A program made the translations under genes and the position numbers. This document shows positions 2,836 to 16,601 of a DNA stretch of 24,000 nt, one piece after another (position 1 is the stretch's first letter; each line of letters opens with the position of its first letter). The stretch comes from Paludibacteraceae bacterium. GTDB taxonomy: Bacteria > Bacteroidota > Bacteroidia > Bacteroidales > Paludibacteraceae. The DNA lies in assembly GCA_017961765.1 (NCBI GenBank), contig JAGCWQ010000016.1, forward strand, positions 8,916 through 32,915, given 5' to 3'. A model generated the notes under the pieces. It was given only the letters and a program-made list of their open reading frames with translations. It was not told the origin of the DNA and did not search any database.

Positions 2836-3747
2836 ATGACAAAAAAGTTAATTACGATCATAGGCCCTACGGCAAGCGGTAAGACGGCTTTGGCAGCCCA
2901 TCTGGCATATAGGTTGGACGGTGAAATCATCAGCGGCGACTCCAGGCAGATCTACCGTCACATGGATTTGGGAACGGGCAAGGACTTGGACGATTATACG
3001 GTGAACGGCAAGAATATCCCTTACCACTTGATTGATATCGCAGATCCTGGCTATAAGTACAACGTATTCGAATTTCAACGCGATTTTCTAAAGGCCTACG
3101 ACTCCATTCTAGAAAGGGGGAGACAACCCATTTTATGCGGTGGAACGGGACTTTATATCGAAGCTATCCTGAAAGGATACCGCCTCCAGCCCGTCTCTGA
3201 GAACAAAGAGCTGCGGGAAGCCCTTGCCGACAAAAGTTTGGCCGAATTGACCGAGATTTTGAAAGGGTATAAGCAACTCCACAACACCACCGATGTGGAT
3301 ACGGCCAAACGTGCCATCCGCGCCATCGAAATCGAGGAGTACTATAAAACGCATGAATACGACGAACTTCTGGCCTTCCCCAAAATGGAGAGCGTCATCA
3401 TTGGAGTTAACATCGACCGTGAAAGCCGACGCAAACGCATCTCTGAACGACTGAAAAGCAGATTGGAGAACGGAATGCTCGATGAAATCAAGCATTTGCT
3501 CGATATGGGCGTCGCTCCCGAAGACCTCATCTATTACGGTCTGGAATATAAATATCTGACAAATTATGTCATCGGGAAGATTTCCTACGAGGAAATGTAT
3601 TCCGGATTGGAGATTGCCATCCATCAATTCGCCAAAAGACAGATGACCTGGTTCAGGGGCATGGAACGCAGAGGTTTCCCTATCCATTGGATTGACTTCC
3701 ATCAACCAATGGAGGACAAAGTGAACCAAATATGCTCGTTTTTGTGA
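2836..3747 (+). CDS. miaA: tRNA dimethylallyltransferase (tRNA isopentenyltransferase)
   Basis: The P-loop start IIGPTASGKTALAAHLA is followed by GEIISGDSRQIYRHMDLGTGK and PYHLIDI, the characteristic MiaA N-terminus. The length of 303 aa is typical. Confidence 0.9.
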   Translation: MTKKLITIIGPTASGKTALAAHLAYRLDGEIISGDSRQIYRHMDLGTGKDLDDYTVNGKNIPYHLIDIADPGYKYNVFEFQRDFLKAYDSILERGRQPILCGGTGLYIEAILKGYRLQPVSENKELREALADKSLAELTEILKGYKQLHNTTDVDTAKRAIRAIEIEEYYKTHEYDELLAFPKMESVIIGVNIDRESRRKRISERLKSRLENGMLDEIKHLLDMGVAPEDLIYYGLEYKYLTNYVIGKISYEEMYSGLEIAIHQFAKRQMTWFRGMERRGFPIHWIDFHQPMEDKVNQICSFL

Positions 3748-14158: not shown

Positions 14159-14557
14159 ATGAAAGAAGAAAGATATGAAGAGGAGCCCAAAAGCCAAATA
14201 GAGGAGTATGGAGAGCATTATTCCCCACAAGAACTCTTCTTCAAGTTGGCTCGTGTCGCTAAAAATGCAGGTATCAAAATAGTCTATTATGTCTTGATCC
14301 TCTACTATTCATTGATGTATGGGAACCTGACGGTGAAGGAGAAAAGTATCATCATCGGGGCATTGGGATATTTCATCCTGCCGATAGACTTGATTCCTGA
14401 TTTGTTGCCATTAGGCTATTCGGACGACCTCTCCCTCATCGTTTTTGTCGTGACCAAGATGAAGAAATCCTTCACGGAAGAGATTCGTACGATGGCACTC
14501 AACAAACTGAAACGATATTTTGACAATATTGATGAGGATGCTATTTCCTTGAAATAA
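14159..14557 (+). CDS. DUF1232 (YkvA-like) membrane protein
   Basis: The signature ALGYFILPIDLIPDLLPLGYSDDL is characteristic of DUF1232. Confidence 0.7.
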   Translation: MKEERYEEEPKSQIEEYGEHYSPQELFFKLARVAKNAGIKIVYYVLILYYSLMYGNLTVKEKSIIIGALGYFILPIDLIPDLLPLGYSDDLSLIVFVVTKMKKSFTEEIRTMALNKLKRYFDNIDEDAISLK

Positions 14558-14666
14558 AAGAGGAATCGGGACAATCCTTGGGTTGTCTCCTCCAATTGAA
14601 ACAAAAAAAATCACTTTTTTCTGCATTTTTTTCTTATCACGCAAAAAGGCTGCGTACCACCGCCTA

Positions 14667-14674
14667 TACATTTG
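14667..14674 (+). promoter_or_regulatory. Candidate -7 promoter box upstream of the Y-RNA-like cluster
   Basis: TACATTTG matches TAnnTTTG and lies about 43 nt before the first module. A weaker ATCATTTG at 14704-14711 would place the transcription start exactly at the base of module A (G14717). Confidence 0.3.
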
Positions 14675-14716
14675 CAATGTCAAACGAATAAAAGAGTTCT
14701 TTGATCATTTGAAATA

Positions 14717-14817
14717 GGCAGCGGTTGCCGTAGTGGAGAGTTACTTCGAGATTCCTATTCTTAATCGAACCCTGAGGTTCGATAGCATATACTCTCTACG
14801 TTTGTCGCACCACTGTC
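14717..14817 (+). ncRNA. Y-RNA-like module A, a candidate Rsr-binding bulged helix with a small apical hairpin
   Basis: 14717-14725 pairs with 14809-14817 (one C-A mismatch). T14726 is bulged. GC 14727-28 pairs with GC 14807-08. The 3' side carries the bulge TTTGTC. CGTAG 14729-33 pairs with CTACG 14796-800. The 5' side carries the bulge TGG. AGAGT 14737-41 pairs with ACTCT 14791-95. The apical hairpin is ATCGAAC-CCTGAG-GTTCGAT (14764-14783). Modules B and C share this architecture. Confidence 0.55.
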
Positions 14818-14824
14818 CCTTTAT

Positions 14825-14953
14825 AAAGGGGTGCCGTAGGAAAGGGATACTTCGTAGTGGTCAGAGCGTCGGCTAAGCCGAAGGCGCAAGTTCGAATCTT
14901 GCCATCAGTTCGCTGATGTTAGCTCAATTCCCTACCAGCTGTCGCCTCCTTTT
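14825..14953 (+). ncRNA. yrlA: YrlA-like Y RNA: an Rsr-binding-type bulged helix enclosing a tRNA-like domain
   Basis: The stem matches modules A and C: 14825-31 pairs with 14946-52, T14832 is bulged, GC pairs with GC, GTAG pairs with CTAC, GAAA is bulged, and GGGAT pairs with ATTCC. The interior has a canonical T-arm GCAAG-TTCGAAT-CTTGC (14886-14902). It also has a D-loop-like AGTGGTCA followed by GAGC (14856-14867), which pairs with the GCTC in TAGCTCA (14922-25). A closed acceptor-like hairpin CATCAG-TTCG-CTGATG spans 14903-18. A short arm TCGGC-TAA-GCCGA spans 14869-81. The module lies directly upstream of rsr on the same strand. Confidence 0.75.
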
Positions 14954-14962
14954 AAAACTATA

Positions 14963-15056
14963 ACGGCTGCCGTAGCAGAGAAGTTCTTCGATCAGTTAGG
15001 GGAGTGGGATTAAATGCCCACTTGTAAAAGGTCTCTGCGCTTGTTGCGCCGTTTTT
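14963..15056 (+). ncRNA. Y-RNA-like module C (YrlB-like short Y RNA) ending in a T-tract
   Basis: ACGGC 14963-67 pairs with GCCGT 15048-52. T14968 is bulged. GC pairs with GC. The 3' side carries the bulge CTTGTT. CGTAG 14971-75 pairs with CTGCG 15035-39 (one G-U pair). C14976 is bulged. AGA pairs with TCT. The apical hairpin is AGTGGG-ATTAAATG-CCCACT (15003-15022). The module ends in a T5 run at 15052-15056, which looks like an intrinsic terminator. Confidence 0.6.
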
Positions 15057-15083
15057 GTATAACCATTTAGAACTTATATTCTT

Positions 15084-16601
15084 ATGATGTTTAATCAGAT
15101 GTTGAAAAATAAGGCAGAAAAGAACTATCAAGGTGGCGAAGCGTATAGACTTACTCCTGAATTGGAACTCTATACGGCCGTTGTGACCTCTTCGCTTAGC
15201 AACAAATTCTACGAGGAAAAAGAGGAACAGATGCTACGCATCTCTAATCTAGTCAGCCAAGTCTCTCCTGAATTCGTAGCCAAACTCGCTGTCTATACCC
15301 GCACGCAGATGAACTTGCGCAGCATTCCGTTGTTGCTGATCGTCCTGCTCTCCAAAATCCACAACGGAGACGACCTCGTGGCACGGACAATCGAAAAGAC
15401 GGTGTTGAGAGCCGACGAGATTGCGGAACTCCTTATGTGCTACCAACTTCTGAATCCATCAGAAGGGGAAAAGAAATTGGCGAAACTATCCCGTCAAATC
15501 CAAAACGGTCTGAAATCTGCTTTCAATAGGTTCGACGAATACCAATTTGCCAAGTACGACCGAAGCAACGCACAAGTGCAACTCCGCGACGCTCTCTTTC
15601 TCGTACACCCTAAGGCCAAAGACGATAAGCAACAAGAACTCTTCGATAAGATTGCCCAAAAGAAATTGGAGATTCCCTACACATGGGAAACGGAGCTATC
15701 CGCATTGGGTCAGCAAAAATTTGAATCGCAGGAAGAGAAGACGATGGCTTTACGAGCAAAATGGGAAGAGTTGATTTTCAGCGGGAAAGTGGGTTATATG
15801 GCCTTGCTTAGGAACTTGCGGAATATGCTCAACGCCCAAGTCTCTGGCTCTGCGATGAACCATGTCGCCGACCTATTGGCAGACGAGCACCAAGTAAAGA
15901 ACTCCAAGCAATTGCCGTTCCGCTTTCTCTCCGCCTACAGGGAAATAAAAGGGATTGAAAGCGTTAACACCCAATATGTTATGTCGGCATTGGAAACAGC
16001 TATTAAGCATTCCACTACCAACATCGAAGGGTTCGACGAACAAACAAGCGTCCTCTTGGCATGCGACGTGAGCGGATCTATGAATTGTTCCATCAGTTCC
16101 AAAAGCACCTTGCAGTATTATGACATCGGCATCCTACTTGCCATGCTTTTCAAAACACGTTGCAAGAGTGTGATTTCAGGCATCTTCGGCAATAAATGGG
16201 AAGTGGTGAATATGCCGTCCGACAACATCTTGATGGCAACCGACCAACTCAAGAATCTTGCCAACAAGGTAGGCTTCAGCACCAACGGCTATAAAGTCAT
16301 CGACTACCTCATCGACAATAAAAAGGAGATTGACAAGGTGATGTTCTTCACGGATATGCAACTCTGGGATTCCGACGGACACAATACCTCCTTGCGCCAA
16401 TCATGGGAACGTTACAAACAACGGTTTCCAAAATCGAAGCTCTATCTTTTCGACTTGTGCGGCTATGGAGTTTCCCCACTCAAAATCGCCCAGCCCGATG
16501 TCTATATCGTCTCTGGATGGAGCGACCGGGTATTCGACGTGCTTTCTGCCATCGAAAAGGGGACGGACGCCATCGAATTTATCAAGAAAGTAAAGATTTA
16601 A
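15084..16601 (+). CDS. rsr: Ro60-related protein Rsr (TROVE domain plus a C-terminal vWA domain)
   Basis: The TROVE-type N-terminus is NYQGGEAYRLTPELELYTAV...FYEEKEEQ...FVAKLAVYTRTQMNLRSIPLLL. The vWA MIDAS motif is LLACDVSGSM. The length is 505 aa. Y-RNA-like elements lie immediately upstream. Confidence 0.85.
   Translation: MMFNQMLKNKAEKNYQGGEAYRLTPELELYTAVVTSSLSNKFYEEKEEQMLRISNLVSQVSPEFVAKLAVYTRTQMNLRSIPLLLIVLLSKIHNGDDLVARTIEKTVLRADEIAELLMCYQLLNPSEGEKKLAKLSRQIQNGLKSAFNRFDEYQFAKYDRSNAQVQLRDALFLVHPKAKDDKQQELFDKIAQKKLEIPYTWETELSALGQQKFESQEEKTMALRAKWEELIFSGKVGYMALLRNLRNMLNAQVSGSAMNHVADLLADEHQVKNSKQLPFRFLSAYREIKGIESVNTQYVMSALETAIKHSTTNIEGFDEQTSVLLACDVSGSMNCSISSKSTLQYYDIGILLAMLFKTRCKSVISGIFGNKWEVVNMPSDNILMATDQLKNLANKVGFSTNGYKVIDYLIDNKKEIDKVMFFTDMQLWDSDGHNTSLRQSWERYKQRFPKSKLYLFDLCGYGVSPLKIAQPDVYIVSGWSDRVFDVLSAIEKGTDAIEFIKKVKI

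What the first reader, a model, noticed from the sequence alone, without database searches (positions are those of the whole stretch)
14825..14953. Middle module is a tRNA mimic that appears to join its Rsr-binding stem through the D-loop
Inside module B, every element of a tRNA four-way junction can be read off with canonical spacing. The string T-A-GCTC-A (14920-14926) corresponds to U8-A9, D-stem 10-13 and A14. AGTGGTCA-GAGC-G (14856-14868) corresponds to the D-loop with G18 G19, D-stem 22-25 and G26. GAGC 14864-67 pairs with GCTC 14922-25. The arm TCGGC-TAA-GCCGA (14869-81) occupies the anticodon-arm position but has only a 3-nt loop. A 4-nt variable region AGGC follows. The T-arm is GCAAG-TTCGAAT-CTTGC (14886-14902). 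Directly abutting it is a 6-bp acceptor-like stem, CATCAG/CTGATG, closed by a UUCG tetraloop (14903-18), so there is no free CCA end. The chain therefore enters and leaves the tRNA-like fold between A14 and the D-loop (T14848 pairs with A14927). As far as I recall, in the published Salmonella YrlA it is the anticodon-stem equivalent that leads to the Ro-binding module. If my fold is right, this is a differently permuted tRNA mimic.
Basis: partly seen in the sequence, partly recalled or inferred. Interest (0 to 1): 0.75.

Follow-up and report, generated by a model that had tools for sequence, protein, structure and literature searches.

The report
tRNA mimic grafted through its D-stem
The middle of three small RNAs encoded just upstream of a bacterial Ro60 (Rsr) gene is a Y RNA. 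Its head is an almost complete tRNA joined to the Ro-binding stem through the D-arm, a connectivity that differs from the published YrlA and Yrn1 tRNA mimics and recurs across Bacteroidota.

Summary

- **Sequence and fold.** Every element sits at the stated coordinates. RNAfold's minimum-energy structure of 14825-14953 reproduces the proposed fold exactly.
- **Context.** The module lies 131 nt upstream of, and on the same strand as, a TROVE/vWA Ro60 orthologue. A Y-RNA-like module without a tRNA-like domain flanks it on each side.
- **Relatives.** A covariance model found 12 clear relatives in 81 Bacteroidota rsr loci. Four to five more distant ones turned up in Chitinophagia and Saprospiria.
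- **Covariation.** On a structure-blind alignment, 99.5% of cells pair and 13 of 20 pairs show compensatory changes. The critical long-range D-stem is paired in 56 of 56 cells and switches A-U (8) to G-C (6). Both rival local pairings show no compensatory change.
- **Un-permutation test.** I cut the acceptor hairpin loop and rejoined the D-loop in silico. ARAGORN then-10 of the 12 close relatives and 3 of the 5 distant ones ordinary tRNAs, against 0 of 1200 shuffles.
- **Comparison with known types.** Published YrlA enters through the anticodon stem, and Yrn1 has the order D-AC-T. Rfam's YrlA model does not match this type.

My verdict is a new variant of a known kind. Its function is inferred, not shown.

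The parts
14720..14816 (+). Module A: Y-RNA-like module with a terminal stem carrying GCCGUAG and an invariant CUUCG. It has no tRNA-like domain.
   Evidence: Full-length match to model R1 through the shared Ro-type stem, 33.8 bits. Sequence read.
14826..14953 (+). Module B: the whole Y RNA with the D-stem-grafted tRNA-like domain.
   Evidence: R1 gives 93.9 bits, E about 1e-24, over the full model. The MFE fold equals the proposed fold.
14826..14847 (+). 5' strand of the putative Rsr-binding stem, including the GCCGUAG motif at 14833-14839.
   Evidence: Helices 1 and 2 of alignment A5 are 94-100% paired, and 8 of 13 pairs show compensatory change. The motif resembles the GNCGAAN0-1G of Chen et al. 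2014.
14848..14855 (+). 5' linker UACUUCGU, containing the CUUCG that is invariant in all module classes.
   Evidence: Its role is unexplained.
14856..14863 (+). D-loop remnant AGUGGUCA (R15, G18 G19, A21 equivalents).
   Evidence: Alignment A6. G15 with C48 here, A15 with U48 in L032.
14864..14868 (+). D-stem 3' strand GAGC (positions 22-25) followed by G26.
   Evidence: It pairs with 14922-25. 56 of 56 cells are paired in 14 RNAs, with A-U 8 and G-C 6 at pair 11-24.
14869..14881 (+). Anticodon-arm equivalent UCGGC-UAA-GCCGA. The loop is cut down to 3 nt in this window.
   Evidence: The stem is 100% paired, with 5 of 5 pairs compensatory. 8 of the 12 close relatives have 7-nt loops.
14882..14885 (+). 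Variable region AGGC (C48 equivalent at 14885).
   Evidence: Alignments A5 and A6.
14886..14902 (+). T arm GCAAG-UUCGAAU-CUUGC.
   Evidence: 100% paired, with 4 of 5 pairs compensatory. It matches Rfam tRNA model positions 49-64.
14903..14918 (+). Acceptor-stem equivalent closed by a UUCG loop (CAUCAG-UUCG-CUGAUG). There is no free CCA end.
   Evidence: Helix 6 of A5 is 98.6% paired, with 3 pairs compensatory.
14919..14926 (+). U, then U8-A9, the D-stem 5' strand GCUC (positions 10-13), and A14.
   Evidence: UAGYUCA is conserved in 11 of 12 relatives directly after the acceptor hairpin. Pairing counted.
14927..14953 (+). 3' linker and 3' strand of the putative Rsr-binding stem, ending in UUUU.
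14962..15055 (+). Module C: a Y-RNA-like module without a tRNA-like domain.
   Evidence: R1 gives 39.5 bits over the full model.
15084..16601 (+). rsr, the Ro60 orthologue (505 aa).
   Evidence: Pfam TROVE 4.1e-29 and vWA_Ro60 8.3e-09. PDB TROVE-domain chains 9l5y and 9kop at 2.4e-23. More than 5000 homologues, with Bacteroidales names.

Best explanation
Module B (14826-14953, + strand) is a bacterial Y RNA that belongs with the rsr gene 131 nt downstream. Its two ends pair into a long stem carrying the GCCGUAG motif, which is the presumed Rsr-binding module.

Its other end is a nearly complete tRNA in circularly permuted order. The order is: D-loop 3' half, D-stem 3' strand, anticodon arm, variable loop, T arm, acceptor stem closed by a loop, U8-A9, D-stem 5' strand, A14. 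The four-helix junction has tRNA spacing: 1 nt between D and AC, 4-5 nt variable region, 0 nt between T and acceptor, and 2-3 nt between acceptor and D. The D-stem is the helix that closes this junction and leads to the Rsr-binding stem. The tRNA body is therefore attached to Rsr at its D-arm, and the anticodon arm, T arm and elbow nucleotides are left free.

- **Shown here:** the sequence, the conserved secondary structure with covariation, the tRNA-likeness, the genomic linkage to rsr, and the difference from YrlA.
- **Inferred from what is published for other Y RNAs:** the RNA binds Rsr through the stem. The tRNA-like head acts as a stable, nuclease-resistant module that tethers or gates Rsr, or recruits a tRNA-binding partner (PNPase in D. 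radiodurans and Salmonella).
- **Most likely origin:** a tRNA-tRNA dimer transcript, made of tRNA 1 from position 15 to its 3' end, a spacer, and tRNA 2 positions 1-14.
For: - **Sequence and fold.** Coordinates and strings verified. The MFE fold is identical to the model.
- **Linkage to rsr.** rsr is directly downstream on the same strand.
- **Homologues.** Model R1 finds 12 full-length homologues at 67-161 bits next to rsr in 81 loci, while other Y-RNA classes score 57 bits or less.
- **Covariation.** A5 has 98.7% of cells paired, and 22 of 33 pairs have changes on both sides, reached by 0 of 500 shuffles. The MAFFT-only core alignment A6 has 99.5% paired and 13 of 20 pairs compensatory, with slid controls at or below 45%.
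- **D-stem.** 56 of 56 cells are paired in 14 RNAs, with A-U 8 and G-C 6. The constrained fold with the long-range D-stem beats the local rival by 0.8-5 kcal/mol in 11 of 11 RNAs.
- **tRNA-likeness.** Un-permuted sequences are called 72-76-nt tRNAs by ARAGORN: Arg x6, Leu, Pro and Phe among the close relatives, plus 3 of the 5 distant members. None of 1200 shuffles is called.
- **Distant members.** Core-only MFE folds of L068, L070 and L075 give the same four-way junction.
- **Not YrlA.** The published YrlA connectivity differs. Rfam RF02553 hits the neighbouring class-1 modules but no class-2 module.
- **Origin.** The core model R2 also scores on tRNA-tRNA junctions in tRNA arrays at about 50 bits, which fits a dimeric-tRNA origin. 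That origin model is published for YrlA.
Against: - There are no expression, Rsr-binding or probing data.
- The thermodynamic z-score of the window RNA is only -1.37.
- D-stem variation amounts to essentially one covarying position plus wobbles. It may reflect only one to three evolutionary events.
- The rival UUC:GAR pairing is 94.4% compatible, and RNAalifold chose it on 4 sequences.
- The window copy has lost the 7-nt anticodon loop.
- The closest relative, L028 (Rsr 83% identical), lacks the acceptor hairpin and both D-stem strands. L043 has a broken D-stem. The full fold is therefore not indispensable in every lineage.
- A5 was fitted to the model, which biases its counts. A6 and A7 were not.
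Confidence: 0.78

Rival explanations
1. The long-range D-stem does not form. Instead the invariant CUUCG pairs locally, either UUC with GAG/GAA of the D 3' strand, or CUUCG with CGAAG. The head is then an open junction of independent hairpins, a Yrn1-like three-stem-loop domain, and the GCUC/GAGC complementarity is only a relic of the ancestral tRNA.
For: RNAalifold on 4 sequences chose UUC:GAA. That pairing is 94.4% compatible, and CUUCG:CGAAG is 84.5% compatible. L028 and L043 do without the D-stem.
Against: Neither rival has a single compensatory change. CUUCG is invariant even in module classes that have no partner for it. The 11-24 pair switches A-U to G-C without one mismatch in 14 RNAs. 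The rival fold is 0.8-5 kcal/mol worse in 11 of 11 RNAs, with pair probability at or below 0.03. CUUCG:CGAAG would destroy a hairpin in which all 5 pairs covary.
Confidence: 0.1
2. It is an ordinary member of the YrlA family, drawn differently.
For: It shares with YrlA a tRNA-like T arm, a closed acceptor stem, no CCA end, and a position next to rsr on the same strand.
Against: YrlA's defining order T-AS-D, with an anticodon stem made from the 5' and 3' segments, is not present. No D stem-loop follows the acceptor hairpin. RF02553 gives no hit in the window even at E <= 10, yet it hits true YrlA-type modules that lie directly beside class-2 modules in L008, L010, L032 and L075.
Confidence: 0.02
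3. It is a decaying fusion of tRNA remnants trapped inside a Y RNA gene, with no function of its own.
For: The window copy has a 3-nt anticodon loop. L024 has a 45-nt insertion there. L043 and L028 are degenerate. rsr loci are full of tRNA genes that could donate pieces.
Against: The architecture is kept from Bacteroidales to Chitinophagia and Saprospiria, with compensatory changes in every helix. In Prevotellaceae-type loci it keeps a fixed place directly upstream of a YrlA-type module.
Confidence: 0.06
4. It is a precursor of a working tRNA or split tRNA. RNase P and 3' processing would open the acceptor hairpin, as happens in M. smegmatis YrlA, or a circularisation pathway like that of permuted algal tRNA genes would apply.
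For: Un-permuted relatives look like normal tRNAs with sensible anticodons. M. smegmatis YrlA is cleaved by RNase P and receives CCA.
Against: Acceptor stems are 6 bp and lack a discriminator or CCA. 'Anticodons' drift freely at positions 34-35. The window copy has no anticodon loop. The D-loop would remain interrupted by about 50 nt of Ro stem. No bacterial splicing endonuclease pathway is known (the paper's own statement).
Confidence: 0.04

Closest known systems
YrlA (Rfam RF02553; S. Typhimurium YrlA, crystal structure PDB 6CU1; Chen et al. 2014, Wang et al. 2018)
   Same: Both are Rsr-linked Y RNAs encoded beside rsr on the same strand. Both have a head that is a circularly permuted tRNA mimic, with a canonical T arm, G18G19-type D-loop nucleotides, an R15:Y48 pair and an acceptor stem closed by a loop, so there is no CCA end.
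   Different: YrlA is opened at the anticodon loop: the anticodon stem is formed by the 5' and 3' segments and runs into the Rsr stem. Its D arm is an intact stem-loop 3' of the acceptor hairpin, and the order is (V)-T-AS-D. Here the RNA is opened in the D-loop, the D-stem is the closing helix, and the anticodon arm is an intact hairpin. The order is D(3' half)-AC-V-T-AS-D(5' half). RF02553 does not match it. Both types occur side by side in 10 of 12 loci.
D. radiodurans Yrn1
   Same: The 5'-to-3' order is D, then an anticodon-arm hairpin, then the T arm. This orientation is opposite to YrlA.
   Different: As described in the papers, Yrn1 has three stem-loops (D, AC, T), no clear D arm, a 6-nt AC loop and no V region. 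No acceptor hairpin is described, so the Rsr stem takes the place of the acceptor stem. Here the three hairpins are AC, T and acceptor, and the D-stem closes the junction. I could not obtain the Yrn1 sequence, so this comparison rests on the papers' text. L051:2361-2472 and L028:2292-2392 look like the Yrn1-type arrangement.
Circularly permuted tRNA genes (Cyanidioschyzon merolae and some archaea; cited in Wang et al. 2018)
   Same: The acceptor ends are joined by a loop, and the transcript starts and ends inside the tRNA body.
   Different: Those are precursors processed through a circular intermediate into real tRNAs. Here the break carries a conserved stem of about 50 nt with a Ro-binding-type motif, and nothing suggests maturation.
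tRNA (Rfam RF00005)
   Same: The helix lengths, junction spacing and conserved nucleotides U8, A14, G18G19 and the T-loop match. Un-permuted relatives are called tRNAs.
   Different: In the native order it scores 19.1 bits against a threshold of 29, and it has no D-stem. ARAGORN finds nothing. There is no free acceptor end.

Membership tests
Bacterial Y RNA (Rsr-associated ncRNA, general) | Encoded within a few kb of the Ro60 orthologue, on the same strand | tested here: met
   The module ends at 14953 and rsr starts at 15084, both on the + strand. The same linkage holds in all 16-17 homologues.
Bacterial Y RNA (Rsr-associated ncRNA, general) | Long stem formed by the 5' and 3' ends, carrying a Ro-binding-type motif (GNCGAAN0-1G in the 5' strand) | tested here: met
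   The stem is 94-100% paired, with 8 of 13 pairs compensatory. The motif is GCCGUAG, one base off the published consensus.
Bacterial Y RNA (Rsr-associated ncRNA, general) | Bound and stabilised by Rsr in vivo | not testable with these tools
   This needs an Rsr pull-down or a Northern blot in an rsr deletion strain.
YrlA (RF02553) | Order (V)-T arm-acceptor hairpin-closed D stem-loop, with the anticodon-stem equivalent made of the 5' and 3' segments and leading to the Rsr stem | tested here: not met
   There is no D stem-loop after the acceptor hairpin. GCUC at 14922-25 pairs back to 14864-67, and the anticodon arm is a closed hairpin.
YrlA (RF02553) | Match to the Rfam covariance model | tested here: not met
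   No RF02553 hit in 14550-15120 at E <= 10. Class-1 neighbours in related loci score 31-47 bits, while class-2 modules there give no hit at E <= 0.01.
YrlA (RF02553) | Closed acceptor stem without a CCA end; tRNA tertiary-contact nucleotides present | tested here: met
   The UUCG-closed 6-bp stem is present. U8, A9, A14, G18G19, R15/Y48 and the T-loop UUCGAAU are present at sequence level.
YrlA (RF02553) | Modified by TruB (Psi55) and DusA; tRNA-like L-shape in 3D | not testable with these tools
   This needs modification mapping and a solved structure.
Yrn1 type (D. radiodurans) | Head of three stem-loops in the order D-AC-T, with the Rsr stem in the acceptor position | tested here: inconclusive
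   The order of the D-loop half, AC and T agrees. However, there is an extra acceptor hairpin and the D-stem closes the junction.
tRNA (RF00005) | Cloverleaf in native 5'-3' order with a free acceptor end; score above the Rfam threshold | tested here: not met
   19.1 bits against a gathering score of 29, with D-stem pairs flagged as non-pairs. ARAGORN finds 0 genes.
Permuted tRNA genes (algal or archaeal) | Processed via a circular intermediate into a mature, functional tRNA | not tested
   There is no evidence either way. The 3-nt anticodon loop in the window and the 6-bp acceptor stems argue against it.

The most novel reading that the evidence does not exclude
Bacteroidota carry a distinct, phylum-wide Y RNA subfamily in which a whole tRNA body, including an intact anticodon stem-loop (consensus YU-NN-GG-N), is hung on Rsr by its D-arm. 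It works non-redundantly next to YrlA in the same operon. For example, it could present an anticodon arm and elbow to tRNA-directed enzymes or anticodon nucleases, coupling tRNA damage or modification status to Rsr-dependent RNA decay. Together with YrlA (anticodon graft) and Yrn1 (acceptor graft), this would mean evolution has attached tRNA to Ro60 at three different points.
Probability: 0.2. Interest if true: 0.8.

Novelty: new variant of a known kind. Interest (0 to 1): 0.62.

Why it matters
What the tRNA-like head of bacterial Y RNAs binds is still an open question. YrlA hides the anticodon end in the Ro-binding stem and exposes the elbow and acceptor side. This variant does the opposite at the D-arm and keeps a free anticodon arm. 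It also sits directly beside a YrlA-type RNA in most loci.

That gives a natural pair of differently oriented tRNA mimics on the same protein. The pair constrains which face of the tRNA matters and offers a handle for pull-downs and structural work.

It also supports the dimeric-tRNA origin model for Y RNAs, with a second, independent break point.

Finally, it flags an annotation hazard. These modules are invisible to Rfam's YrlA and tRNA models, and ARAGORN sometimes miscalls them as odd tRNAs.

Tried and rejected
- **Rfam and ARAGORN on the window.** The Rfam gathering-threshold scan and ARAGORN found nothing.
- **Loose pattern scan.** I scanned metagenome and viral contigs with GCCGTAG..CTTCG..GTTCRA. 
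- **Tighter class-2 pattern on viral contigs.** It gave 7 loci, and none matched the model. The type does not appear to be viral.
- **Parent tRNA.** I looked for one among 109 tRNAs in the loci. The best identities were only 65-73% to genuine tRNAs, so there is no clear donor.
- **Contig look-ups.** P0001 returned only the window's own contig, and P0003 a contig with 314 nt upstream. Neither added members.
- **Promoter and terminator scan.** The sigma-70 and intrinsic-terminator scan of 14400-15200 found nothing. This is uninformative for Bacteroidota.
- **Mini-hairpin around CUUCG.** The U-R-C-UUC-G-Y-A test was inconclusive.
- **Literature.** The Sim & Wolin 2018 review and the supplements of Chen 2014 were not available. 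Searches found no description of a D-arm-grafted Y RNA.

Full report
**What is in the window.** The region 14700-15060 on the + strand holds three tandem modules. Each begins with GCCGUAG and ends in a complementary strand followed by a short U run. Directly downstream, ORF 15084-16601 encodes a 505-aa protein with TROVE (4.1e-29) and Ro60-vWA (8.3e-09) domains, that is, an Rsr/Ro60 orthologue. It matches solved TROVE-domain proteins and has thousands of homologues, the named ones from Bacteroidales. The rest of the window is ordinary chromosome: MiaA, a Crp-type regulator, an AP endonuclease, MurF-Alr and a TPR protein. There is no rtcBA. The Rfam gathering-threshold scan and ARAGORN find nothing in the window.

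**Checking the observation.** It has a terminal stem, a GAGC(14864-67):GCUC(14922-25) helix closing a four-way junction, a 5-bp hairpin with a UAA loop, a T arm, and a 6-bp hairpin closed by UUCG. The energy is not remarkable (z = -1.37). Rfam's tRNA model reaches only 19.1 bits, E 0.28, for 14854-14903 (model positions 7-64) and marks the D-stem as unpaired. The single sequence is therefore suggestive, not conclusive.

**Homologues.** An alignment of Rsr proteins retrieved 80 rsr loci from Bacteroidota genomes. Reading the modules upstream of rsr showed three kinds of tRNA-like Y RNA:
- **Class 1** has the published YrlA order: T arm, acceptor hairpin, and a complete D stem-loop UAGCUCAGUUGGUAGAGC.
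- **Class 2** is the window type.
- **Class 3** has only a D-like loop, a hairpin and a T arm (L028, L051).

They are L005, L008, L009, L010, L012, L013, L014, L024, L032, L043, L045 and the window at 93.9 bits. All other Y-RNA-like modules score 57 bits or less through the shared stem. A core-only model (R2) and inspection added L052 (Saprospiraceae), L068 (Segetibacter), L070 (Chitinophagaceae), L075 and the metagenomic L116. In these the module lies downstream of rsr.

**Covariation.**
- *Model-fitted alignment A5.* 98.7% of 391 cells pair, and 22 of 33 pairs show changes on both sides. No shuffle out of 500 reaches this, and slid controls stay at or below 48%.
- *Plain MAFFT alignment of the core, A6 (10 RNAs).* This alignment owes nothing to the model. 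99.5% of cells pair, and 13 of 20 pairs are compensatory.
- *The helix that decides the topology.* The long-range D-stem is paired in 56 of 56 cells in 14 RNAs. Pair 11-24 is A-U in eight RNAs and G-C in six (the window, L045, L052, L068, L070, L075), with no mismatch.
- *Junction spacing.* It is that of tRNA: one base between the D and anticodon stems, a 4-5-nt variable region, none between the T and acceptor stems, and two between the acceptor and D stems (three in the window).
- *Levitt pair.* R15/Y48 is kept in nine of nine RNAs where it can be read. The one A15 (L032) goes with U48.

**Rivals for the D-stem.**
It would destroy the anticodon-like hairpin, in which all five pairs covary.
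- *A second rival.* UUC of CUUCG could pair with GAR of the D-stem 3' strand. RNAalifold preferred this on four sequences, and it is 94.4% compatible but has no compensatory change. CUUCG is invariant in every module class, including those with no tRNA-like part, so this pairing does not explain its conservation. Constrained folding makes the long-range D-stem fold 0.8-5 kcal/mol better in all eleven RNAs with an intact D-stem. Pair probabilities are 0.05-0.57 in ten of them (about 0 in L045), against 0.03 or less for the rival.
- *Limit of the evidence.* The rival cannot be excluded as a minor conformer. D-stem variation may also reflect few evolutionary events.

**Is it really a permuted tRNA?** I cut each acceptor hairpin in its loop, removed the Ro stem and linkers, and joined A14 to the D-loop. 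ARAGORN then calls nine to ten of the twelve as ordinary 72-76-nt tRNAs. They are Arg ACG/UCG/CCG x6, Leu GAG and CAG, Pro GGG, and Phe AAA. It also calls three of the five distant members, and none of 1200 shuffles. The window copy fails because its anticodon loop is only 3 nt. L024 fails because of a 45-nt insertion there. In native order these RNAs are not recognised by Rfam's tRNA model.

**Comparison with what is known.**
- *YrlA as first described.* Chen et al. 2014 describe YrlA as (V)-T-AS-D. They state that Yrn1 differs in the orientation of T and D, and in whether the hairpin between them is the acceptor or the anticodon arm.
[quoted passage not shown] The authors call YrlAs circularly permuted tRNAs with closed acceptor stems, and they propose an origin from dimeric tRNA transcripts.
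- *Rfam's YrlA model.* RF02553 hits class-1 modules in L008, L010, L032 and L075 at 31-47 bits. It hits no class-2 module, and nothing in the window even at E <= 10.
- *Conclusion.* The window RNA is therefore not a YrlA. It is a Y RNA whose tRNA mimic is attached through the D-arm. By the papers' descriptions, YrlA is attached through the anticodon stem, and Yrn1 has the Rsr stem where the acceptor stem would be. I could not obtain the Yrn1 sequence, so that last contrast rests on text.
- *Literature.* No paper in the searchable library describes this arrangement.

**How it probably works.**
- *Shown:* a conserved, covarying RNA structure linked to rsr.
- *Inferred from D. radiodurans and Salmonella work:* the terminal stem binds Rsr. 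The head is the effector module, which stabilises the RNA and tethers or gates Rsr.

The D-arm graft leaves the anticodon arm, the T arm and, in Bacteroidales, the G18G19 elbow nucleotides free. This places Rsr at a different face of the L than in YrlA. In ten of twelve loci a class-2 module is immediately followed by a class-1 module, which suggests that the two are not redundant. The window has no class-1 module. The fold is evolutionarily labile. The closest relative, L028 (Rsr 83% identical), lacks the acceptor hairpin and both D-stem strands. L043 has lost the D-stem, and distant members have reduced the D-loop to three bases.

**Origin.** The order, tRNA positions 15-72, a loop, then positions 1-14, is what a tRNA-tRNA dimer gives when cut in both D-loops. 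Model R2 scores about 50 bits on real tRNA-tRNA junctions in the tRNA arrays that flank many of these rsr genes. This extends the published dimer model to a second break point.

**Verdict.** This is a new variant of a known kind, a tRNA-mimicking Y RNA, and its function is untested.

Noticed in passing
L001-L080, flanks of rsr (e.g. L010:1752-2352, L008:1631-2480, L056, L070, L076, L079): rsr genes in Bacteroidota are accompanied by tandem arrays of up to five or more Y-RNA-like modules on the same strand. Model R1 gave 227 matches in 81 sources. Arrays lie upstream of rsr in Bacteroidales and downstream in Chitinophagia and Cytophagia.
   Followed up: partly
L032 (15 tRNAs), L075 (15), L056 (10), L061, L066, L068, L069; tRNA-Met 200-550 nt upstream of rsr in L007, L009, L032, L033, L042, L047, L049, L050, L051, L064: Many rsr loci sit inside same-strand tRNA gene arrays, and a tRNA-Met is often embedded in the Y RNA array. 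The window itself has no tRNA gene.
   Followed up: partly
window 14850-14854, and the equivalent position in every module of the loci: CUUCG is invariant in all module classes, tRNA-like or not. A mini-hairpin U-R-C-UUC-G-Y-A (UAC-UUCG-GUA in L052 and L075) is possible but not supported statistically.
   Followed up: partly
L005:276-350, L008:1793-1867, L012:117-191, L013:852-925, L014:2203-2276: The T loop reads UCCGA, with C at position 55 instead of the universal U/Psi55. These RNAs could not be TruB substrates. The window has the canonical UUCGAAU.
   Followed up: no
Anticodon-like loops of L005, L008, L009, L010, L012, L013, L014, L032 (alignment A5): The loop consensus is YU-NN-GG-N. 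Positions 34-35 drift while U33 and G36G37 (the TrmD determinant) are kept. The window has only UAA, and L024 has a 45-nt insertion.
   Followed up: no
L028:2292-2392: The orthologous middle module of the closest relative (Rsr 83% identical) keeps the D-like loop, a hairpin and the T arm. It lacks the acceptor hairpin and both D-stem strands.
   Followed up: partly
L009:1885-1961, L008:1767-1853, L014:2177-2262: On native DNA, ARAGORN miscalls class-2 modules as odd 77-87-nt tRNAs that borrow part of the Ro stem as acceptor stem. This is an annotation hazard.
   Followed up: partly
L039:1019-1096, L032:4817-4895: The class-2 core model scores about 50 bits on junctions between adjacent genuine tRNA genes, as expected if class 2 arose from a tRNA dimer.
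   Followed up: no
window 14700-15070: When all three modules are folded together, the 5' strand of module A's stem pairs with the 3' strand of module B's stem, because the stems are alike. A polycistronic precursor could therefore misfold unless it is processed or folds co-transcriptionally.
   Followed up: no
L306:223-465, L312:11729-11999 (IMG/VR contigs): Y-RNA-like modules, including a YrlA-type one in L306, occur on contigs classed as viral.
   Followed up: no
window 2836-3747: A MiaA (tRNA isopentenyltransferase) gene lies about 11 kb upstream of the Y RNA array. This is probably coincidental.
   Followed up: no
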